Both the position numbers and the translations under genes were made by a program. From a virus (lineage: Duplodnaviria; Caudoviricetes), in IMG/VR virus record IMGVR_UViG_3300036798_000105, positions 1 to 60,717 of that record: a DNA stretch of 60,717 bases, one strand, 5' to 3'. The stretch's first letter is position 1; every line of letters begins with the position of its first letter. The notes under the pieces are model-generated. The model was not told the DNA's origin and did not search any database. It was given only the letters and a program-made list of their open reading frames with translations. Positions 23,135 to 53,282 of this stretch are shown here, in pieces.

Positions 23135-23741
23135 CAGGCAAGAACTGTGGGACATGGAGCTGGAGCAGCTCTACCTCGAACGGGAGACTACCGAGCCAGA
23201 TCCCGAGATGTGGCGCTGGAGTCCGCTGGAGCTAGCGGAATTCGACCGAATGCTTTCCGTGGCAACGCATCTGCTTGCGCCGCTCAGCTCGATTCGCTTC
23301 GGAGAAGCTGGCTGTGGGATAGGCACAAAGCTATACCTCGCGGTCAACTACCATGGCCTTGAGTCAGTCGGGTGGGAGATTTCGGATGACTACCTCGCAA
23401 AGGCTCTCGTGCTAGGAGTCGACGCGCGGTACATGGACCTGCGTAAGGACTCGCCGCCATGGGCCGAGTTCGACATCGTCTATACCGCGCGACCATTCAA
23501 GGATGATGATGTCGAGATCGCCTGGGAGAGATCAGTCTGGGAGGCCATGAAGCCGGGCGCTGTCATAATGATGGCGTACACGGCGGCTAAGCCATACACC
23601 TGGCCGTGCTACTATCGGGCGCCATTCCGCGGTGTCTGGATGAAGCCTGCCGCTCCGGCGATCCCGGTCTATGACGCCATGATCAGGCGGCAGGAGCCGT
23701 ATGACCCCCTCGTGCCCGCTCCGGGGCCGGGCGGCCGGTAG
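23121..23741 (+). CDS. Class I SAM-dependent methyltransferase
   Basis: Motif I EAGCGIG, G.EI, FDIVY, MKPGAV. Confidence 0.8.
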   Translation: MSVLSRQELWDMELEQLYLERETTEPDPEMWRWSPLELAEFDRMLSVATHLLAPLSSIRFGEAGCGIGTKLYLAVNYHGLESVGWEISDDYLAKALVLGVDARYMDLRKDSPPWAEFDIVYTARPFKDDDVEIAWERSVWEAMKPGAVIMMAYTAAKPYTWPCYYRAPFRGVWMKPAAPAIPVYDAMIRRQEPYDPLVPAPGPGGR

Positions 23742-23911
23742 GCGGCCGGATCGGACCCCCGACGCGCCGCGCGGCTACCGGCCTACGGCTAACGGAAGCG
23801 GGTCCGATCCGGCTAGGATACGTCCTAGGGCTAACGCCCGTCCTAGGTACCGTCTCGGGACGGCTAGAGCTATTCGACGTAGAGCTATGAATCGGTAGCT
23901 TAGCGTAGTAA

Positions 23912-28710: not shown

Positions 28711-28957
28711 CGTTCCTCTTTCTGTGCTGTATCCGCGCGTGGTTCTTGAGTATCTGTTCCAGGGTCCATATTCCCTGTAGTTCTATTGTCTTCGGGAGGT
28801 TACATTCGCGGCACCGAATGAGAACGGTCGTAATTTCGACCTGTCTGAGTTGTGGATGGTACACTACGTTTTTCGGGAGCCATACGTCTAGGATGTCCCA
28901 GATATGAACATGTTCAGGGACTTTCGGCGCGGCTTCTATTTGCGGCTCGGTCATCAC
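28697..28957 (-). CDS. Hypothetical protein (HxH, CxxC)
   Basis: Coupled ORF. Confidence 0.5.
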   Translation of the reverse strand: MMTEPQIEAAPKVPEHVHIWDILDVWLPKNVVYHPQLRQVEITTVLIRCRECNLPKTIELQGIWTLEQILKNHARIQHRKRNDELQ

Positions 28958-29925
28958 ATCATCGGCTTCCGCGCAGCGTTATGATGCAACGGTTCGACAG
29001 GATCGATGTCGGTCCATGTGTCCGGGGCATCGCCCGCCGCCGAGTGAGCGTTAACCCGGTCGCGAATTACGCACCAGCGATCGGCCGGGCCGTTAAAGCC
29101 GCAGTGCCCGGTCTGGTAGCACACAGGCTTGAACAAGCGGGCGATCTCGCGTTGCTGCCAGCTTTCCTCCGGCGGGCCGTAAGTCATGATTGCCCTGATG
29201 AACTGGTCCCACACATGCTTCCACTCAGCCTGAGCTTGCGAGCACAGTCGCATGCCTGCCTGGTTGACCAGGTTCCGCAGGTCGGTGTGGTAGTGGATGC
29301 GCGTCGTGATGTCTGTCGGCAGGAGTCCGCGCGCCTCCTCGGCGGGCATGCCGGAGCCGATGAGGTGGAGGTATGCCTGCGCGGTATGTGAGACGCATTC
29401 GTCCCAGACGTTCCGCTGCCACTCCTGGGTAGAGTCTTCCGCGCCGGGAGTCTGCCCACCTTCTGTGTTCGCCAAGGATGGTGGGATCGGCACCTCGAAT
29501 GCTGCGTTCTCCTTGACGGCGAACCGCATCGACTCCTGAACGAACACGGCCGTACGCTGTCGTACGAGCTGATGCGTGAATGCCCGCGTCACGCCACTGA
29601 TGAAGAAGTGGAGGTTGATGAACTCAAGCGGAGCACTGATCTTACTTGACTTGAATCCATCCAGCCACTTCAGGGCCTGATCGTGCGAGATGTACCTCGG
29701 GTCGTCGTAGATACCTCCCTGGTATAGTTCGCTCGCCGCAGCCATTACCCGGAGCGGGTTAGCCGTCATCGAGACCAAGGTGACCTTGGGACGTACCGGC
29801 TCGCCGCCGTATGTGATCGGCCTAGCCGCGTACATGGCCTCATCCGCCCACTTGACCGGTAGGCTTCGGTTCTCTGGCGGCATGTAGTCCTGCTCCTTCT
29901 CTTCGTGACTTGTCCACTCGCTCAT
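28954..29925 (-). CDS. thyX: ThyX-like FAD-dependent thymidylate synthase (variant motif RQRx7S)
   Basis: PLEF, GVTRAFTHQLVRQR...QESMR, EEARGLLP, RLCSQAQ.EW. Confidence 0.85.
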   Translation of the reverse strand: MSEWTSHEEKEQDYMPPENRSLPVKWADEAMYAARPITYGGEPVRPKVTLVSMTANPLRVMAAASELYQGGIYDDPRYISHDQALKWLDGFKSSKISAPLEFINLHFFISGVTRAFTHQLVRQRTAVFVQESMRFAVKENAAFEVPIPPSLANTEGGQTPGAEDSTQEWQRNVWDECVSHTAQAYLHLIGSGMPAEEARGLLPTDITTRIHYHTDLRNLVNQAGMRLCSQAQAEWKHVWDQFIRAIMTYGPPEESWQQREIARLFKPVCYQTGHCGFNGPADRWCVIRDRVNAHSAAGDAPDTWTDIDPVEPLHHNAARKPMM

Positions 29926-30023
29926 TTTCTTGCCTTCCTGATGAAGTGTGCGATCGCACTAAGTGCGAGCCGAACCAGTATGAGTACGGCTATTACATTT
30001 GCCGCAAAATAAACTAGCTCCAT
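29922..30023 (-). CDS. 33-aa membrane microprotein
   Basis: MELVYFAANVIAVLILVRLALSAIAHFIRKARK; TAATG and ATGA coupling on both sides. Confidence 0.55.
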   Translation of the reverse strand: MELVYFAANVIAVLILVRLALSAIAHFIRKARK

Positions 30024-30709
30024 TACCTGCCGCCGTTGATCTCGATGATAGCGCCGGTCATCTGCTCCGGGCCGGTAAGGACCCATGCGATAGTCTTGGC
30101 CACTTCCTTGCGTGTGGCTCTTCTGCCGGTAGGGATGTTCTGTTCTTCATACGAGCGGGCGTGTTCTGGAGTCCAGCCCCGGAATCCGGGGATGGTCTTG
30201 TCGATGTACTCCGTCATCGGGGTATCCTCGACCATGCCCGGCGCTACCGCGTTGATCCGGTGGAGCGGCGCCAGCTCCCGCGCCATCACCTTTACGGCCA
30301 TGTCGAGCGCGGCTTTTGAAGCGCAGTAGGCGACGGAACCGCGCATCGGGATACGGGCGGCGTCGGAGCTGACCGCGACGGCGGACATTGCGTTGTCCGG
30401 GAATATCCGCAGGTGTTCCGAGATGGTGAGGACGAACCCGGCGCAGTTAATGTTGAAAAGGTAGCCCATGGTCACGTCGATGTTCTGTTCGTGTATCCAG
30501 GCGAGCTCATTATAGCCAGCCGAGTAGACGATGTATGGGAATGGGCCGTGAGTGCTGATGTATGTGGAGACGCTAGCTGCGAGCTCAACGTCTAGCTCGT
30601 TCCTATGCGGAGTGTGTATGTCGCGTCCTAGCTTCTCGGACATGACCTTTGCAGTAGTCTTCCCGATGCCGGAGTTGCCGCCGATGATGAGACACTTGTT
30701 AGTTATCAT
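30023..30709 (-). CDS. Short-chain dehydrogenase/reductase (FabG-like)
   Basis: GGNSGIG, YCASK, INAVAPG. Confidence 0.9.
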   Translation of the reverse strand: MITNKCLIIGGNSGIGKTTAKVMSEKLGRDIHTPHRNELDVELAASVSTYISTHGPFPYIVYSAGYNELAWIHEQNIDVTMGYLFNINCAGFVLTISEHLRIFPDNAMSAVAVSSDAARIPMRGSVAYCASKAALDMAVKVMARELAPLHRINAVAPGMVEDTPMTEYIDKTIPGFRGWTPEHARSYEEQNIPTGRRATRKEVAKTIAWVLTGPEQMTGAIIEINGGR

Positions 30710-30992: not shown

Positions 30993-31021
30993 AGTATACC
31001 GTCGCGCGCGGGTAATTACTA
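30993..31021 (-). promoter_or_regulatory. Predicted promoter TAGTAA-N17-TATACT
   Basis: In a CA/TG-free island, about 30963-31038. Confidence 0.6.
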
Positions 31022-31687
31022 GCCCGTCTTTTCCTTCCAGGCGGCTACATGGAACCGCAGGAATTCCCTGAATGCGTTCAGGCTATGAACACGAATCAGG
31101 CCATCCCTGTTGACGCCCACGGAATTGTACGGCTGTGCCATGAGGTAGGTATTCTGAATGCCTGCTTCGCGTGCTTCGTGAAGTTGCTCTGTCAGGTCAT
31201 CTATGGCGGCTATGATCCGGCCGAGTCCTACTTGCTGTACCAGTTCGTGGTACTTGCCATGACCGTCAGGATCATCCCACAGGATCGCATCGAAACCAAT
31301 GTGGTTCCGGTTGAGCCATTCTTGCGTGTCTTCATCGATGTTGTCGAGACGGTTGTACGGACGAGTGGTACAGATCCAGATCTCTACATCCTGGTTCCTG
31401 AGCCATGTAGTCAAGTCGCTCGCGCCGGGGTATACCGGCATCGTCCGCTTCATGCCGCCTTGTCGGTAAGCTAGCTTGATCTTGCGATAGATGGAGTGAT
31501 CGATGCCCATGAATTCCGACAGCCGCCGTCCGGGATTGATCGAGCTTGGATTCGGCATCTTGCGACCTAGCCATCCCTCGGCAAATTTAAGGAAGTGCAC
31601 GTGATAGTCGCCCAATGTTCCGTCGATGTCGAGAGCCACAACACCGCGCAGAGCGCCGTTCCTGAAGATCTGTGGATTAGTCATCAT
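31019..31687 (-). CDS. HAD-family phosphatase (5'-nucleotidase-like)
   Basis: DIDGT, TTRP, IDD motifs. Confidence 0.85.
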   Translation of the reverse strand: MMTNPQIFRNGALRGVVALDIDGTLGDYHVHFLKFAEGWLGRKMPNPSSINPGRRLSEFMGIDHSIYRKIKLAYRQGGMKRTMPVYPGASDLTTWLRNQDVEIWICTTRPYNRLDNIDEDTQEWLNRNHIGFDAILWDDPDGHGKYHELVQQVGLGRIIAAIDDLTEQLHEAREAGIQNTYLMAQPYNSVGVNRDGLIRVHSLNAFREFLRFHVAAWKEKTG

Positions 31688-36207: not shown

Positions 36208-36645
36208 CTAGTAGGGGGCTTCCGCTGCCGCCTTGGAGGCGTTGGACGGACGCCCGCGACCACGCTTGACGGGCGCGGCGGCCGGAGCCGGGGTTGCCGG
36301 AGCGGTAGCGGCGGCCTTGCGGGGACGACCACGGGCAGGCCTGGCCGGCTCGGGCTCAGGCTCTGGTTCCGGCGCGGCGCGCTCGGACTTGCGGGCTTCG
36401 CGCTGAGAGATGTTGAATTCGGACTTCTGGAAGTGCGGGTACAGGGCCGAGCCGAGCGACAGGAGCTTGTCCACGGGGACATCCTCCAGGGCCGCGACGT
36501 TGTCTTCGAACCAGACAACGTAGTCGGACATCGTCGGGGACAGATCCTTGTCGAGGTACCGCTGGAAGTCGACCTGGCCATTCTCTTCGGGGTCAGGCTC
36601 TGGCGGCGCGACTACGGCCGCCCTGCGCCCTCGTGCTGCTGGCAT
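36208..36645 (-). CDS. 145-aa protein of the M..[FY]..W.E...FQ.S..N family (in-frame extension to 36939 possible)
   Basis: SD AGGAGG before ATG 36645; core aligns with 48769-49224 and 52038-52412. Confidence 0.75.
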   Translation of the reverse strand: MPAARGRRAAVVAPPEPDPEENGQVDFQRYLDKDLSPTMSDYVVWFEDNVAALEDVPVDKLLSLGSALYPHFQKSEFNISQREARKSERAAPEPEPEPEPARPARGRPRKAAATAPATPAPAAAPVKRGRGRPSNASKAAAEAPY

Positions 36646-36690
36646 AGGGGAATCCCTCCTGGGGTGAGGCATTTTCGCGTTACCCTTCCG

Positions 36691-39862: not shown

Positions 39863-40089
39863 TAGTAGTCGCCAGCTTCATGGTAACCGTGACTAGGCTC
39901 TTCAGGTGGTGAATTCTTACTCTCCTGCTTGTAATGCGTGTTGACGTTGTAGTTGCCCTGTTCGACTAGTTCTCGCGCGGTATTGAGGATCTCCAGGATG
40001 CCTTCTTTGCCCTTGACGGGGCCTCGAACGTCAATTATCATCTTGCCTATGTCGGACACCGTCACCAGCATCAAGATGCTTCTAGCCAT
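39862..40089 (-). CDS. Hypothetical protein
   Basis: Coupled ORF with SD GGAG. Confidence 0.55.
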   Translation of the reverse strand: MARSILMLVTVSDIGKMIIDVRGPVKGKEGILEILNTARELVEQGNYNVNTHYKQESKNSPPEEPSHGYHEAGDY

Positions 40090-40918
40090 TATTGTCTCCA
40101 GGTATTTCTAGGGATCGGATGTCGCCGCCGTGTATGGCCGAGGCAACTTTCCAGTTGGGGATGTAGTCGTTCAGTAGTTTCCGCCATGATACCCGTAGCG
40201 GCTTGTCTGGAGCATTCGTGTAGCTCGGCCATCTCTTGTGGATGATGTCTAGGCATTCCTTCTCGGCAGCGGTTCGTGCCTCTATGGTGCTGTACTTCGC
40301 GGCGAATCCTCCCGGGCTGTACCGCTTAGCTACCGACACCGCCTTGACGTCGCAGTGAGCGAGCCATGGAATTCCACGCTTGATACCTTGCCTGGCTAGT
40401 TCGGTATCCTCCCCGATCGTGTGAAGCTTAGTGTCGAAGTTCCCACAGTCGAGCGCTGTCTGGACGTTAAGTCCGAACACCTGAAACCCCCAGCCGCCAG
40501 GACACAGGATGGCACCATGGTTTCTGGAGATGGCTCCGCCGGTGAACATGTCATGGATGGATCGTGTAGCGCCGATGCCAAGTACTCCTGGCTTCTCGGC
40601 TTCCTCAAGCAGGAGGCTCGCGTTTGAGTTGGAGTGAATGTGGATGTCGTCATCGCTCATGATGATCGAGATGAGTGCCGTTTTCTTGGCATGCTGAACA
40701 CAGAAGTTCCGGGCGTACCCGATGCCGCGCGCGGACAGAGGCAGCGGGAGGATGTAGACATTCTTGCCCCAATTCTCCTCACGCTTGAGCTTGCCGTGGA
40801 TGCTGAATTCCATGCGGTCAACCACGAGCCGTACCTGAATGCCCTGGTCGATCCAGTTGGGTACGGTCTTGCGGAGCATGTCGATGCGGCTCATGGTTGG
40901 GATGTAAACTACATCCAT
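40082..40918 (-). CDS. GT-A fold glycosyltransferase (resembles phage DNA-modifying TAGT/GREB1-like enzymes)
   Basis: VYIPT..R, GIGYARNF, SDDDI (DxD), GED.EL, PGG motifs. Confidence 0.75.
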   Translation of the reverse strand: MDVVYIPTMSRIDMLRKTVPNWIDQGIQVRLVVDRMEFSIHGKLKREENWGKNVYILPLPLSARGIGYARNFCVQHAKKTALISIIMSDDDIHIHSNSNASLLLEEAEKPGVLGIGATRSIHDMFTGGAISRNHGAILCPGGWGFQVFGLNVQTALDCGNFDTKLHTIGEDTELARQGIKRGIPWLAHCDVKAVSVAKRYSPGGFAAKYSTIEARTAAEKECLDIIHKRWPSYTNAPDKPLRVSWRKLLNDYIPNWKVASAIHGGDIRSLEIPGDNNG

Positions 40919-43412: not shown

Positions 43413-43629
43413 CGATGCCTTCCCGGAGGGTTACCCTCCTTTTTCAGATCAGGCCAAGGAGGGTAACCCTCCCTTTTCTGGCACCCGCTTTTCGGGTACT
43501 CTCCCCCGATTATAGCGCGTCCGGCGCGGGTAGGGAAGACGTACGCGCGATTACCGGCCGTACGTACGGCTACCCCTACCCGCGCGGCGAGCGGACGCTA
43601 GCGCGCGCCGAGCGAAGCCTATGATGTTG

Positions 43630-48768: not shown

Positions 48769-49224
48769 CTAGGGGTTCAGGTCTGAGGACTGGAATGCAC
48801 CGTATGCCTTGGAGGCAATCATCACCAGCCGCGCGTCGACACCCTTGGGGAACAGATCTGCGTACTCGCGCTCGATCCACTGCGTGAAGCGGACCATGGC
48901 CGGCGTGATCTCCTTGGTGGCGTAGCTGCGGTGTCCGGTGACGCGCGGCTCCTTGGCCGGCTTTGGCTCTGGCTTCTTCTGCTTTGCCAGTTCCCGCGCC
49001 AGCGCTTCCGACTGCTCCTTGATGGCCGCCGCCTTCGCGGCCCTGGTCTGGGCAGCCTTCTGAGCAGGCGTCAGGATCTCAGGCGCTGGCGCCTTTGCGA
49101 CCGGCTTGGTTGTCGTCACCAGCTCGGGACCGGAACGGCCGGACGGTCCCTGGTTTGACTCGGCATTCTTGCTCGGACGCCGGTTGCGACGAGTCGGAAT
49201 CTTCTCGGCTTGGGTGGTAGACAT
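48769..49224 (-). CDS. 151-aa Lys/Ala-rich protein, paralog of 52038-52412
   Basis: AMVRFTQWIERE...VDARLVMIASKAYGAFQSSDLN; SD AGAAAGG. Confidence 0.8.
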   Translation of the reverse strand: MSTTQAEKIPTRRNRRPSKNAESNQGPSGRSGPELVTTTKPVAKAPAPEILTPAQKAAQTRAAKAAAIKEQSEALARELAKQKKPEPKPAKEPRVTGHRSYATKEITPAMVRFTQWIEREYADLFPKGVDARLVMIASKAYGAFQSSDLNP

Positions 49225-51112: not shown

Positions 51113-51384
51113 TTCGTGTCTCTCTTTCCTCTACGCTCCGGCGTTCCGGCGCTACGTACGGAGTCTATACGACGGAATCGGCGATAGCGAATCGCTTGTT
51201 TTCGCTGGTCAACACATTTTGGTGGTGTCGGTGGCTGGCTGGCTGGCCGGGACAACATACACACACATTTCGCGGGAATTTTTCAAAATCATGTGCGCGG
51301 GATGAACGCCCATCGGCTGGGGTCGACCCCACTGGGGTCAATTGAGGTCGAATGTAGTCGACTACATTTTTTAGGCCCTGGTTG

Positions 51385-51500
51385 AACTCAAAAATTATTT
51401 CTGACATTTTAGTCAAACTCGAAAATTTTTCCTGACATTTTAGGCAAACTCCAAACTTATTTTCGACACTATAATCAAACTCAAAAATTATTTTGACGCC
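51385..51500. repeat. AT-rich 31-bp tandem repeat (about 3.7 copies)
   Basis: AACTC starts at 51385, 51416, 51447 and 51478; unit is about AACTCAAAAATTATTTCTGACATTTTAGTCA. Confidence 0.85.
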
Positions 51501-51902
51501 GCTAGGCGACGGGACACAATTTTTCAATCTACTGTAGTCGACTACCTCAGACGCCCATCGGTCGTACCCCAATGTTTTCGCCTCCTCCCGTTTGTAGTCG
51601 ACTACCTTTTCCCTACGCCGGTAGAACGCGATCCGGCGCGCCGGAAATTCCCGGAAAATCCGGCGGATTTTCGGAATATTCCGCTCGCCGCGCGAAGCGG
51701 AGGAGCGCTCCGAATTTCGTTCGGAAGCGGAGGAGCGCTCCGAAATTCCCGATTTTCCGCGCGGATTTTCGGGAATTTTCTCCGGGGATTTTCCGTTCGC
51801 GCGCGCGCCGCGCGGTAAGTAGGAGTCGCGCGTAAGCGGAGGCCGCCTCCGAAATTCCCGGAAAAAAGAGATCTACGTCTCGTCGGAAAACCGCCTAGAA
51901 AT

Positions 51903-51931
51903 TTTCTTTTTCGCGATCCGGCGGGTACGCT
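51903..51931 (+). promoter_or_regulatory. Predicted promoter TTTCTT-N17-TACGCT for the CA/TG-free gene
   Basis: GGG-TAnnnT architecture shared with the other islands. Confidence 0.5.
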
Positions 51932-52037
51932 TACGTACGTAAGGCCGGAACGAAAGAACCGGCCGAACCTCCGGCCGAACGCGCCGGAGTAGCGCGGAGC
52001 TAGCTCCGCTTTCTAACTAAAGAAAAAGGCGATTAAA

Positions 52038-52412
52038 ATCGACGCTAACGTTATTCCCGCCGCCGTAATTCCCGCCGCCGCCGCCGTAAAGGTCGCGTCG
52101 CCGGAAAAGACCGCGCCGGTTAAGACGGTAACTCGGAAGCCTAGCGCGAAGCGGCCTACGGCCGCCGAAATCGAGCTAGCGGCTCTTAAGGAGAAGCTAG
52201 CGGCGACGGAAGCGGAGCTAGCCGCTAGCGCGGCGCGTAAGCCTAGCGGGTATAAGCTCGCTAGCGTAGCTCCGCGCGCGATGACGGAATTCGCGACCTG
52301 GATTGAGCGCGAGTTCCCGGAGTTCGGAAAGGTCGACGCGCGTCTCGTTACGGTCGCGAGTAAGGCCTACCGCTATTTCCAATCGTCGGACCTTAATTCG
52401 TATTCGGGTTAA
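52038..52412 (+). CDS. Unannotated 124-aa protein with probable ATC start
   Basis: Open frame after TAA 52014; SD AAAGG 8 nt before ATC; C-terminus AMTEFATWIERE...VDARLVTVASKAYRYFQSSDLN matches 48769-49224. Confidence 0.85.
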   Translation: MDANVIPAAVIPAAAAVKVASPEKTAPVKTVTRKPSAKRPTAAEIELAALKEKLAATEAELAASAARKPSGYKLASVAPRAMTEFATWIEREFPEFGKVDARLVTVASKAYRYFQSSDLNSYSG

Positions 52413-52432
52413 TTCCTCTAGAATTCGAATTT

Positions 52433-52460
52433 CCGCCCGGAGTAATTCCGGGCGGTTATT
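52433..52460 (+). terminator. Hairpin terminator-like element
   Basis: CCGCCCGGA-GTAAT-TCCGGGCGG followed by TTATT. Confidence 0.6.
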
Positions 52461-52508
52461 CGGACTCTAGGAACCAAATAAATTCCCATTCAATCATAAG
52501 GATTTCCA

Positions 52509-52709
52509 ATGAATGATTCAGTCATGTTCCAGTCACTTTCAGGAATATTTCACCGCGTTGCTGTCGAGGACATCCAGGGCGCGATCTGCCATGACGATGA
52601 CTCGATGGTAGTCGTCTACACTGCCGGCGACTGTGACGTGTTCCGCGCGGTCAGCTGTGTGCCTGCCTACCGCGCAGAGCTTGAGCTGATTGCCCTGCGC
52701 TCAGCGTAG
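52509..52709 (+). CDS. Hypothetical protein
   Basis: SD TAAGGA before ATG. Confidence 0.55.
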   Translation: MNDSVMFQSLSGIFHRVAVEDIQGAICHDDDSMVVVYTAGDCDVFRAVSCVPAYRAELELIALRSA

Positions 52710-53282
52710 CCTGCCTGCCCCAGCCTGCCCAGTCCTAGTGGCTGGGCAGGCACACACACATATTGCCTGTGCGCCCATCGGTGACCAAAAACTTCAGTGG
52801 TTGGGGGTGGTATTGCCTACCCTCCCGATTGACCCTCCGCCAGCCAAGGAGGGACACTGCCCAGGAACCGCGCGAGCCATAGCATTGGACTGTTGTGGGT
52901 GTCGCCTCGTGCCCTGCCTGGCTGGCTGTGGCTGGGTGCGGCTGCCTGCCTGCCTGGGTGCGCCCATCGGTGGGCACTGCCGCCTACCTGCGCCCATCGG
53001 TGACAGTGCGGAGTCCCTACTGCGGTCGACTAGCTCCCAAATGGCTGTATACTAGGCGGTGTGCGCAGGGTACCCACACAGCACCACCCCCGTGAGACGC
53101 CCATCGGTGGGCTGTGAGGTGGCCATGCTAGCACCCAGCACGCCCATCGGTGGGCAATGGGGTGGGGGAGGACCCCCGACAAGGCTCAGGGGTGAGACCG
53201 TGGCGCACTAGCCGTCGTAAAGCGCGGCCAATTGTGGAACCTTGCCTGTTTGCCATTCCAGCCAATGCCCATGTGTGTGTGG

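What the first reader, a model, noticed from the sequence alone, without database searches (positions are those of the whole stretch)
52038..52412. Hidden gene written almost without CA/TG and apparently initiating at ATC
Seen: a 124-codon frame missing from the ORF track (IDANVIPAAVIPAAAAVKVASPEKT...AMTEFATWIEREFPEFGKVDARLVTVASKAYRYFQSSDLNSYSG). After the upstream stop (TAA 52014) there is no in-frame ATG/GTG/TTG until the internal Met at 52281. An SD (AAAGG 52025-52029) lies 8 nt before ATC 52038. Its only CA/TG steps are the Met, Trp and Gln codons, all conserved in the paralog, plus one Ile-Glu junction; it has no His or Cys. All three canonical start codons contain TG. Inference: selection against TG reached the start codon itself. 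The product may be the first protein made and may let transcription pass modified DNA or block a host defence.
Basis: partly seen in the sequence, partly recalled or inferred. Interest (0 to 1): 0.93.

Follow-up and report, generated by a model that had tools for sequence, protein, structure and literature searches.

The report
Phage gene purged of CA/TG, ATC start
An uncultured soil phage keeps one small gene, with its promoter and terminator, almost free of the DNA steps CA and TG, and the gene seems to start at ATC where relatives have ATG or GTG, which points to a CA/TG-directed DNA mark that this gene must escape.

Summary
Window 51594-52475 (882 nt) holds 4 CA/TG steps where about 113 are expected. 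The frame 52017-52412 has no in-frame ATG/GTG/TTG before Met 52281.

The frame is a real gene:
- It has a paralog at 48769-49224(-).
- Its orthologs in two other viral contigs lie in equally purged islands.
- dN/dS upstream of Met82 is 0.19 in frame against 1.5 and 2.6 out of frame.
- It has its own -10-like promoter element and a terminator hairpin.

ATC 52038 is the likely start. It lies 8 nt after AAAGG, inside a 35-nt block identical in L003. It sits at the position of the GTG start of L004 and the ATG start of the more distant positional ortholog L014.

Selection against CA/TG is ongoing. None of 65 differences between the window and L003 created a CA/TG, although 32% of possible substitutions would.

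The proposed "first protein" and anti-defence roles are untested.

The product is a basic protein of a Pfam-less, metagenome-only family. A CA/TG-directed DNA modification is my inference and is not shown. This scan noted the feature only on this genome.

The parts
51594..52475 (.). CA/TG-poor island (882 nt, 4 CA/TG steps) that contains the whole transcription unit
   Evidence: Equivalent islands exist in L003 (2502-3437) and L004 (890-1883).
51594..51605 (.). Palindrome GTAGTCGACTAC at the left edge of the island. It is the third of three copies, the others being at 51354 and 51534.
   Evidence: I11, D3. The same palindrome lies upstream of the gene in L003, L004, L014 and L015.
51923..51931 (+). 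-10-like element GGGTACGCT, the only such motif in the island, followed by ACGTACGTAAGG as in the paralog's promoter
   Evidence: GGGTAnn[AC]T occurs 22 times in the window, 10 of them inside CA/TG-free runs that cover 4.5% of the window.
52013..52047 (+). 35-nt block identical in L003. It spans the upstream stop, the A-rich SD-like stretch, the spacer, ATC and the next 7 nt.
   Evidence: Read from the sequences printed. The flanks are diverged, with dS about 1 in the gene.
52025..52029 (+). SD-like AAAGG, 8 nt before ATC
   Evidence: The paralog has AGAAAGGCGACTA-ATG.
52038..52412 (+). Coding sequence of 124 codons plus stop, with proposed start ATC 52038
52281..52283 (+). Internal ATG (Met82), invariant in the family and the start of the 43-aa piece that gene callers report
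52418..52470 (+). Terminator-like hairpin directly after the stop codon
   Evidence: I1. One search gives -35.9 kcal/mol, z -6.7. Hairpins lie at the same place in L003 (z -6.4) and L004 (z -5.2).
48769..49224 (-). Paralog (P0001, 151 aa) with an ATG start and ordinary CA/TG content
36208..36672 (-). Distant third paralog (part of P0005) that carries RGRP motifs
   Evidence: hhalign against the family profile gives probability 92.5%, E 5e-7.

Best explanation
Window 52038-52412 is a functional gene of an uncultured actinophage-like virus. It forms its own small transcription unit: a -10-like element at 51923-51931, a leader of about 100 nt, an A-rich SD-like site, the coding sequence, and a terminator hairpin at 52418-52470. 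The whole unit has been purged of the CA:TG step and is kept that way by ongoing selection. Only the Met, Trp and Gln codons and one codon junction retain the step, and His and Cys have been lost from the protein.

Translation most likely begins at ATC 52038, presumably read by initiator tRNA as Met. This codon is the mutated descendant of the ATG or GTG start that relatives have at the same position. On E. coli and Streptomyces precedent, an AUC start should give weak, IF3-sensitive initiation.

Shown here: the purge and its conservation, the coding constraint upstream of Met82, and the positional homology of the start codon.

Inferred: CA/TG is the target step of a DNA modification made by this phage. 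The sequences that must be read by unaided host machinery are kept free of that mark. These are the promoters with their leaders and this one complete gene.

Inferred from composition and paralogs only: the product is a small basic DNA-associated protein with a disordered Ala/Pro/Lys arm, one long helix and a conserved two-helix C-terminal domain.
For: 1. Purge. The island has 4 CA/TG in 882 nt against 13% elsewhere, and only this dinucleotide class is missing. The longest simulated run is 85 nt against 689 nt observed.

2. Conservation of the purge. L003 and L004 carry the orthologous gene in islands of about 0.9-1.0 kb, with CA/TG only at the start (L004), Met, Trp and Gln codons, plus TGs at 2502 and 2573 in the upstream part of the L003 island. 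There are 65 differences in 308 ungapped sites between the window and L003 and none created a CA/TG, although 32% of all and 49% of synonymous single substitutions would. P is about 1.6e-11.

3. Coding. The paralog shares 26/42 identities, E 5e-15. L003 is 71% identical over residues 1-123. dN/dS is 0.19 for codons 34-75 and 0.11 for 77-122, against 1.5-3.1 in the other two frames. Indels between the two proteins are whole codons.

4. Start. There is no TG at all in 51594-52281, so no canonical start exists in any frame. ATC lies 8 nt after AAAGG inside a 35-nt block identical in L003. By my codon-by-codon reading, the GTG of L004 lines up with it (ATC GAC GCT AAC GTT ATT against GTG GAG CGA AGC GTT ATT). 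MAFFT places the ATG of L014 in the same column (TAAAATG against TAAAATC). The region around the start is no more structured than shuffled sequence.

5. Unit. A single -10-like motif is present, and terminator hairpins follow the stop in all three phages.

6. Precedent. Streptomyces infC is stated to start with ATC, and sigR with an IF3-repressed GTC (PMC5472188, passages). In E. coli, AUC initiates at 1-2% of AUG in one assay and near-cognates at 0.02-3% in another, with an N-terminal Met found by mass spectrometry (bioRxiv 10.1101/063800, passages).

7. Context for a DNA mark. There are 21 CA/TG-free runs of at least 60 nt against about 2 expected. They carry the GGGTAnaCT-type -10 motif. 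Five of the 21 end exactly at the ATG of an ORF of at least 73 codons on the coding strand. The window has a TAGT-family glycosyltransferase (38.1 bits, cut-off 27.5) and a ThyX homolog. The glycosyltransferase is kept in both relatives, at 74% and 62% identity. A phage thymine dioxygenase that prefers NTG has been described (PMC13229309, passages).
Against: - There is no expression or proteomic data. The one sequencing run that holds the stretch is DNA.
- MAFFT did not place L004 or L015 in register with the ATC. That match is my own reading.
- ATT 52032 is also conserved in L003.
- Met82 is invariant, and gene callers report the 43-aa piece in three lineages, so a short product cannot be excluded.
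- L004 keeps GTG in an equally purged island. TG avoidance therefore need not explain the ATC.
- No modification enzyme with CA/TG specificity was identified. There is no Tet_JBP and no ParB_N match in the window, and most candidate proteins have no family.
- No chemical evidence of modified DNA exists.
- The function of the product is not supported by any family or fold match.
Confidence: 0.6

Rival explanations
1. Only the 43-aa peptide from ATG 52281 (Met82) is made. The in-frame sequence upstream is untranslated leader.
For: ATG is the only canonical start. Met82 is invariant in 14 of 14 family members. The peptide covers exactly the confidently modelled two-helix domain. Gene callers report this piece in the window, in G001 and in a third contig, and report a 47-aa equivalent in a fourth.
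Against: dN/dS is 0.19 in frame for codons 34-75 upstream of Met82, against 1.5 and 2.6 out of frame. The long helix is kept in all three island orthologs. In L004, L014 and L015 the same region is translated from GTG or ATG. The 12 nt before ATG 52281 are GCTCCGCGCGCG, with no SD-like purine run.
Confidence: 0.12
2. Translation starts at another near-cognate codon, ATT 52032 (also ATT in L003), or at several weak sites, rather than at ATC 52038.
For: ATT 52032 lies inside the conserved 35-nt block and is in frame. AUU is the confirmed non-canonical start of E. coli infC and pcnB (10.1101/063800, passage).
Against: ATT follows the GG of AAAGG by only 2 nt. The canonical starts of L014 and L004 line up with ATC, not with ATT.
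Confidence: 0.1
3. The ATC start was selected to set a low or IF3-dependent dose of the protein, as in infC-type or sigR-type control. It was not selected because the TG of a start codon had to go.
For: L004 keeps GTG in an equally purged island. The window tolerates an avoidable TG at 52304. A drop to a few percent of AUG efficiency is a large price for removing one of five TG/CA steps (10.1101/063800, passages). In Streptomyces, IF3 represses the non-canonical GTC start of sigR, and infC is stated to start with ATC (PMC5472188, passages). The 35-nt block around the start is fully conserved.
Against: ATG to ATC is exactly the one-step change that removes the TG while keeping a near-cognate codon. 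It is seen only in the lineage with the purge, whereas the unpurged positional orthologs L014 and L015 have ATG. The two explanations are not exclusive.
Confidence: 0.35
4. The purge has nothing to do with a modification made by the phage. It avoids a host or phage nuclease or defence sensor that acts at CA/TG-containing sites, or it reflects an RNA-level constraint on leaders and on this mRNA.
For: No CA/TG-specific modification enzyme was identified. Motif depletion in early-injected regions is known as a way to escape restriction (PMC12455610, search listing and start of the abstract only). The absence of both CA and TG cannot by itself tell the strands, or DNA from RNA, apart.
Against: The CA/TG-free runs include the untranscribed part of the promoters, from about -40, which argues for a DNA-level cause. 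Coding DNA elsewhere has CA/TG at expectation (odds 1.05 and 1.04), so the genome as a whole does not avoid a nuclease site. The runs are spread over the genome, not confined to one end.
Confidence: 0.25
5. The frame is a decaying duplicate of the paralog that lost its start codon.
For: It has no canonical start, and an intact paralog lies 3 kb away.
Against: The frame is intact in three lineages with dS about 0.6-1.0 and dN/dS 0.11-0.19. The start region is conserved and the gene has its own promoter-like motif and terminator.
Confidence: 0.04

Closest known systems
Non-canonical AUH or GUC start codons under IF3 discrimination (infC with AUU in E. coli and ATC in Streptomyces; sigR with GTC in Streptomyces)
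   Same: A near-cognate codon without a canonical partner, placed behind an SD-like site, in a virus whose terminase is nearest to those of actinobacterial phages. The expected result is weak, IF3-sensitive initiation with Met (PMC5472188 and 10.1101/063800, passages).
   Different: Here the change coincides with a purge of the TG step from the whole locus. No experiment exists. The gene has no link to IF3 or to a sigma/anti-sigma balance.
Restriction-site or motif avoidance in phage genomes, including the early-injected region of T7-like phages
   Same: A short DNA word is removed by selection from a defined part of a phage genome (PMC12455610, search listing and start of the abstract only; the general phenomenon is from my own knowledge).
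   Different: The word here is a dinucleotide step, not a 4-8 bp site. The purge reshapes amino-acid content and the start codon. It applies to one complete transcription unit and to promoters with their leaders throughout the genome. The rest of the genome has CA/TG at expectation.
Post-replicative, context-specific phage DNA hypermodification (5mYOX/TET dioxygenases with glycosyltransferases; thymidine hypermodification)
   Same: A TAGT-family glycosyltransferase and a ThyX homolog are present. A phage thymine dioxygenase with NTG preference is described (PMC13229309, passages), which shows that a TG-directed mark is biochemically plausible.
   Different: There is no Tet_JBP and no ParB_N match in the window and no chemical data. 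I found no report of modification-free islands or of a modification-free gene for those systems in searches.
Small basic nucleoid-associated proteins of actinobacteria and their phages (Lsr2-like)
   Same: Small size, pI 9.6, a low-complexity Ala/Pro/Lys arm, a helix that could oligomerise, a C-terminal pair of helices, and a distant paralog with RGRP motifs. The comparison with the Lsr2 topology is recalled, not computed.
   Different: There is no Pfam match at all, including Lsr2, at E up to 10 for 14 members. There is no RGR loop in the island protein and no significant fold match.

Membership tests
Genes with a non-canonical (AUH) initiation codon | No canonical start in frame upstream of sequence that is demonstrably coding | tested here: met
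   There is no ATG/GTG/TTG between the stop at 52014 and 52281. Codons 34-75 have dN/dS 0.19 in frame against 1.5 and 2.6 out of frame.
Genes with a non-canonical (AUH) initiation codon | A near-cognate codon at working distance from an SD-like site, at the position of the canonical start of orthologs | tested here: met
   AAAGG, then 8 nt, then ATC. The ATG of L014 falls in the same MAFFT column. The GTG of L004 matches on my own codon-by-codon reading, although MAFFT did not align L004 and L015 in register.
Genes with a non-canonical (AUH) initiation codon | Experimentally determined N-terminus or initiation footprint, and IF3 sensitivity | not testable with these tools
   No RNA run holds the stretch. 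The virus is uncultured.
Lsr2-type nucleoid-associated proteins | Match to the Lsr2 family model | tested here: not met
   Pfam scan of P0001 and P0002 at E up to 1 and of all 14 members of A2 at E up to 10 gave no Lsr2 hit.
Lsr2-type nucleoid-associated proteins | RGR-type minor-groove loop between the two C-terminal helices (recalled feature) | tested here: not met
   The loop of the island protein reads PEFGKVDARL. RGRP motifs occur only in the distant paralog P0005, outside the shared domain.
5mYOX/TET-glycosyltransferase DNA hypermodification systems | A 5-methylpyrimidine dioxygenase (Tet_JBP), with or without a ParB-like activator | tested here: not met
   Six-frame search of the whole record with PF12851 and PF02195 at E up to 1 gave no match. 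The record is estimated to be 94% complete.
5mYOX/TET-glycosyltransferase DNA hypermodification systems | A TET-associated glycosyltransferase | tested here: met
   PF20691 TAGT, E 2e-9, 38.1 bits against a cut-off of 27.5, on residues 4-93 of window 40082-40918(-). Homologs are present in G001 and G002.
5mYOX/TET-glycosyltransferase DNA hypermodification systems | A modified base detected in virion DNA in a defined sequence context | not testable with these tools
   Only an assembled contig and one short-read DNA run are available.
Motif avoidance in the early-injected region | Depletion confined to the genome end that enters first | tested here: inconclusive
   The physical ends are unknown. 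The contig starts inside an ORF and is classed as linear with no end repeats found. CA/TG-free runs of at least 60 nt are spread from 5.7 kb to 57.9 kb, which does not fit a single leading region.

The most novel reading that the evidence does not exclude
This phage lineage marks every CA:TG step of its DNA with a bulky modification that the host transcription machinery cannot handle unaided. All host-read promoters and leaders have therefore been rewritten without the step. One complete 'boot' gene has been recoded to be free of the mark, down to its amino-acid content and its start codon. Its product, a small basic DNA-associated protein with two ordinary paralogs, would be what first allows the host machinery to use the marked genome, or what shields that genome.
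Probability: 0.2. Interest if true: 0.92.

Novelty: new variant of a known kind. Interest (0 to 1): 0.8.

Why it matters
If the reading holds, this is a case where avoidance of a single dinucleotide step has rewritten a gene at every level: codon choice, codon junctions, loss of His and Cys, and the initiation codon. The rest of the genome uses the step freely.

That gives a sequence-only signature for an unknown context-specific DNA modification, or a CA/TG-directed activity, in uncultured actinophage-like viruses. It also names the gene that the virus most needs to keep outside that system.

It gives a natural, comparatively dated example of ATG or GTG changing to ATC at a start codon (L014, L015 and L004 against the window and L003). 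This can be tested with simple reporters.

It also shows how standard gene callers miss or truncate such genes. Three lineages are on record only as 43-aa fragments.

Tried and rejected
Searches for cultured relatives found nothing.
- blastn of 51400-52700 against the phage collection gave no match.
- tblastn of the island protein, of P0001 and of the L018 homolog against the phage collection gave no match at E up to 1 or 10.
- A scan of one genome per prokaryote species with the family alignment found no relative.

Function searches led nowhere.
- Pfam and PHROGs gave nothing for P0001 and P0002 beyond chance-level hits.
- The PDB sequence search had a best E of 1.4.
- Foldseek against PDB had a best E of 5.5.
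- Foldseek against BFVD had a best E of 0.065, to an uncharacterised Arthrobacter phage protein, and none at E of 0.001 or below.
- The ESM Atlas gave no usable hit.

The homodimer prediction for the island protein returned no verdict. I draw nothing from it.

No RNA holder was listed for the stretch.

No tRNA and no Rfam family were found in the window.

The standard sigma-70 consensus scan found no promoter inside the island. The promoter call rests on the phage's own recurring motif.

I looked for a -35 element. ATTCGC-like words occur at 17-19 nt from the -10 in several runs but at 11 nt in the island and one other promoter (my reading), so I claim no -35.

Searches for the enzyme behind a CA/TG mark found no candidate with known specificity. 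These were Pfam or PHROGs scans of 40 window proteins and the Tet_JBP and ParB_N searches.

Four literature searches found no report of a dinucleotide-free gene or of modification-free promoter islands in a phage. This is limited to the open-access library.

The supplements of PMC13229309 (its oligonucleotide data on NTG preference) were not requested and may bear on how firm that preference is.

I considered and rejected three ideas. The island is not an assembly artefact, because an independent assembly of the run holds all sampled words (the same sample). It is not a horizontally acquired block of odd composition, because it is conserved and actively maintained in three lineages. The open frame is not evidence in itself.
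Full report
WHAT THE WINDOW IS. The window is a complete IMG/VR virus record of 60,717 bp, classed as linear and estimated 94% complete. Its large terminase is at most about 50% identical to those of Corynebacterium phages. The 2,039 matching records are almost all phages of actinobacteria. PHROGs finds terminase, portal, major head protein, DNA polymerase, helicase, exonuclease and primase. Long ORFs run rightward in 1-23.7 kb and 52.5-60.7 kb, and leftward in 24.1-51.1 kb. The finding lies in the divergent control region between the leftward and rightward blocks. It sits next to four 31-bp tandem repeats and three copies of the palindrome GTAGTCGACTAC.

THE OBSERVATION. The stretch 51594-52475 has four CA/TG steps, at the Met, Trp and Gln codons and at one ATT|GAG junction. 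The rest of the window has 13.0%. No other dinucleotide class is missing; CG, AA/TT and TA are raised.

In 100 first-order Markov simulations the longest CA/TG-free run was 85 nt, against 689 nt here. Because there is no TG, there is no ATG, GTG, TTG or CTG in any frame on the + strand for 689 nt. Because there is no CA, the same holds for the - strand. A CA/TG-free stretch also cannot contain TGA, so long open frames are expected by chance. Several exist in the island, and the open frame alone proves nothing.

IT IS A GENE.
- The last 42 residues match an ordinary ATG-started gene 3 kb away (48769-49224, minus strand) with 26/42 identities, E 5e-15.
- Two other viral contigs carry an ortholog. 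L003 is 71% identical over residues 1-123. L004 is 44% identical over residues 45-120 and is the same virus as metagenome locus L010.
- Between the window and L003, dN/dS is 0.19 for codons 34-75, which lie upstream of the internal Met, and 0.11 for codons 77-122. Reading the same aligned nucleotides in the other two frames gives 1.5-3.1. The protein-level indels are whole codons.
- A profile of 14 members finds 55 proteins in 5.8 billion. All are unnamed or labelled hypothetical, and none has a Pfam domain.
- The gene has the phage's recurring -10-like motif, GGGTACGCT at 51923-51931, the only copy in the island. The motif is followed by ACGTACGTAAGG, as in the paralog's promoter.
- A strong hairpin follows the stop codon directly, and this is so in all three phages (z -6.7, -6.4 and -5.2).

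THE START CODON. Since codons 34-75 are under coding constraint, translation must begin between 52017 and about 52137. The in-frame near-cognate codons there are ATT 52032, ATC 52038, ATT 52053 and ATT 52068. ATC is favoured for four reasons.
1. It lies 8 nt after AAAGG, whereas ATT 52032 lies 2 nt after it.
2. It sits in a 35-nt block (52013-52047) that is identical in L003, although the gene has dS of about 0.6-1.0 and the upstream island sequence is not alignable by eye.
3. In L004 a GTG lies at the corresponding place, four codons before a shared GTT ATT. It is the only TG in 773 nt (891-1663) of that island.
4. Two more distant metagenome loci, L014 and L015, are positional orthologs. Both have the GTAGTCGACTAC palindrome and CCGATGGGC words upstream, a GGGTATACT promoter-like motif and a terminator-like inverted repeat after the stop. 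Both start with ATG. MAFFT places the ATG of L014 in the column of the ATC. MAFFT did not put L004 and L015 in register, so that part is my reading.

The paralog's start region, AGAAAGGCGACTA-ATG, is also visibly related. The RNA around the start is no more structured than shuffled sequence.

Natural precedent exists in actinobacteria. A paper on Streptomyces sigR states that infC starts with ATC in Streptomyces and shows IF3 repression of a GTC start (PMC5472188, passages read). In E. coli, AUC initiated at 1-2% of AUG in one assay and near-cognates at 0.02-3% in another, and an N-terminal Met was found (bioRxiv 10.1101/063800, passages read). I put the ATC start at about 0.7, a start at ATT or at several weak codons at about 0.1, and a Met82-only product at about 0.1.

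THE PURGE IS SELECTED AND DERIVED.
- Ongoing selection: of all single-nucleotide changes possible in the gene, 32% would create a CA/TG, and 49% of the synonymous ones would. The window and L003 differ at 65 of 308 ungapped sites and none of those differences created one (P about 1.6e-11).
- Composition: all three island proteins have no His, no Cys, one Gln, one Met and one Trp, whereas the paralog has 8 Gln, 3 Met and 1 His. The family motif TGHRxYATK has lost its His in the three island copies.
- Derived state: of 11 metagenome loci, 1 (L010, the same virus as L004) is island-type. The other 10 have canonical starts with CA/TG at 0.058-0.133 per nt.

The purged, ATC-starting form is therefore a derived state within a family that normally starts with ATG. 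This order of events is inferred from the distribution, not from a rooted tree.

WHY CA/TG. This part is inference. The window has 21 CA/TG-free runs of at least 60 nt against about 2 expected, and 12 of at least 80 nt against 0.14 expected. They carry GGGTAnaCT-like -10 motifs. GGGTAnn[AC]T occurs 22 times in the window, and 10 of those lie inside runs that cover 4.5% of it. The runs begin about 40 nt upstream of the motif. Five of the 21 end exactly at the ATG of an ORF of at least 73 codons on the coding strand.

The two related records show the same kind of runs. Coding DNA elsewhere has CA and TG at expectation (odds 1.05 and 1.04). The constraint therefore acts on DNA that the transcription machinery must recognise, and on this one complete unit.

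The simplest cause is a mark placed on the CA:TG step of phage DNA that hinders the host polymerase or sigma factor. The window has a TAGT-family glycosyltransferase and a ThyX homolog, and the glycosyltransferase is conserved in both relatives. A phage thymine dioxygenase that prefers NTG has been described (PMC13229309, passages read). However, the window has no Tet_JBP or ParB_N match, no enzyme of known CA/TG specificity was found, and there are no chemical data.

L004 keeps GTG, and the window keeps an avoidable TG. The claim that the purge forced the start codon to change is therefore plausible but not required. Dosage or IF3-linked control is an equally good reason for the ATC.

THE PRODUCT. 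The AlphaFold model, built on a 14-row alignment, has a mean pLDDT of 65. It shows a disordered Ala/Pro/Lys arm, a helix at 42-65, and two confident helices at 80-92 and 101-116, with block-mean pLDDT of 92, 91 and 86 over residues 81-110. The pI is 9.6. A third, distant paralog carries RGRP motifs. No family or fold match supports any function. I read it as a small DNA-associated protein, at low confidence.

VERDICT. The explanation by a CA/TG-directed DNA mark and the 'boot gene' role remain hypotheses. An ATC start alone would be a new member of a known kind. The dinucleotide purge of a whole transcription unit, shared by three lineages and mirrored at promoters genome-wide, is what makes this worth following up.

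Noticed in passing
window 51307-53150; L003 2248-4058; L004 80-1908: The 10-mer CGCCCATCGG occurs 7 times exactly, all on the + strand and all within 1.9 kb flanking the island, with 2 copies to the left and 5 to the right. L003 has the same 2+5 arrangement. L004 has one copy on each side on the other strand. The right flank is the most CA/TG-rich 500-nt bin of the window (91 steps).
   Followed up: partly
window, 21 runs from 5772 to 57938: CA/TG-free runs of 60-175 nt occur about ten times more often than expected. They carry a GGGTAnaCT-type -10 motif, start about 40 nt upstream of it, and often end exactly at the start codon of the next gene. The related records G001 and G002 show the same kind of runs.
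   Followed up: partly
window 51385-51508 and 51354, 51534, 51594: Four 31-bp tandem repeats are bracketed by the palindrome GTAGTCGACTAC. The palindrome recurs upstream of the orthologous gene in L003 (2 copies), L004 (7), L014 (3) and L015 (1). This may be an origin or operator array.
   Followed up: partly
window 51620-51870: The untranscribed left part of the island is packed with GGAAATTCC-like and GCGGAGGAGCGCTCCGAA inverted repeats, and similar words occur in L003. These could be binding sites, also kept free of CA/TG.
   Followed up: no
The Pfam Prim-Pol match already begins at residue 3 of the ATG-started protein (profile position 8 of 158), so an extension is not required. I did not test it further.
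   Followed up: no
window 23714-23888 and 43483-43622: These are the two longest CA/TG-free runs outside the island (175 and 140 nt). The first lies between the convergent structural and replication blocks. No tRNA or Rfam family was found there.
   Followed up: no
window 28954-29925, 30023-30709, 31019-31687, 40082-40918: A ThyX homolog, a short-chain dehydrogenase, a HAD or 5'-nucleotidase-like protein and a TAGT-family glycosyltransferase lie on the replication strand. This is a possible base-modification gene set, and the glycosyltransferase is conserved in both relatives.
   Followed up: partly
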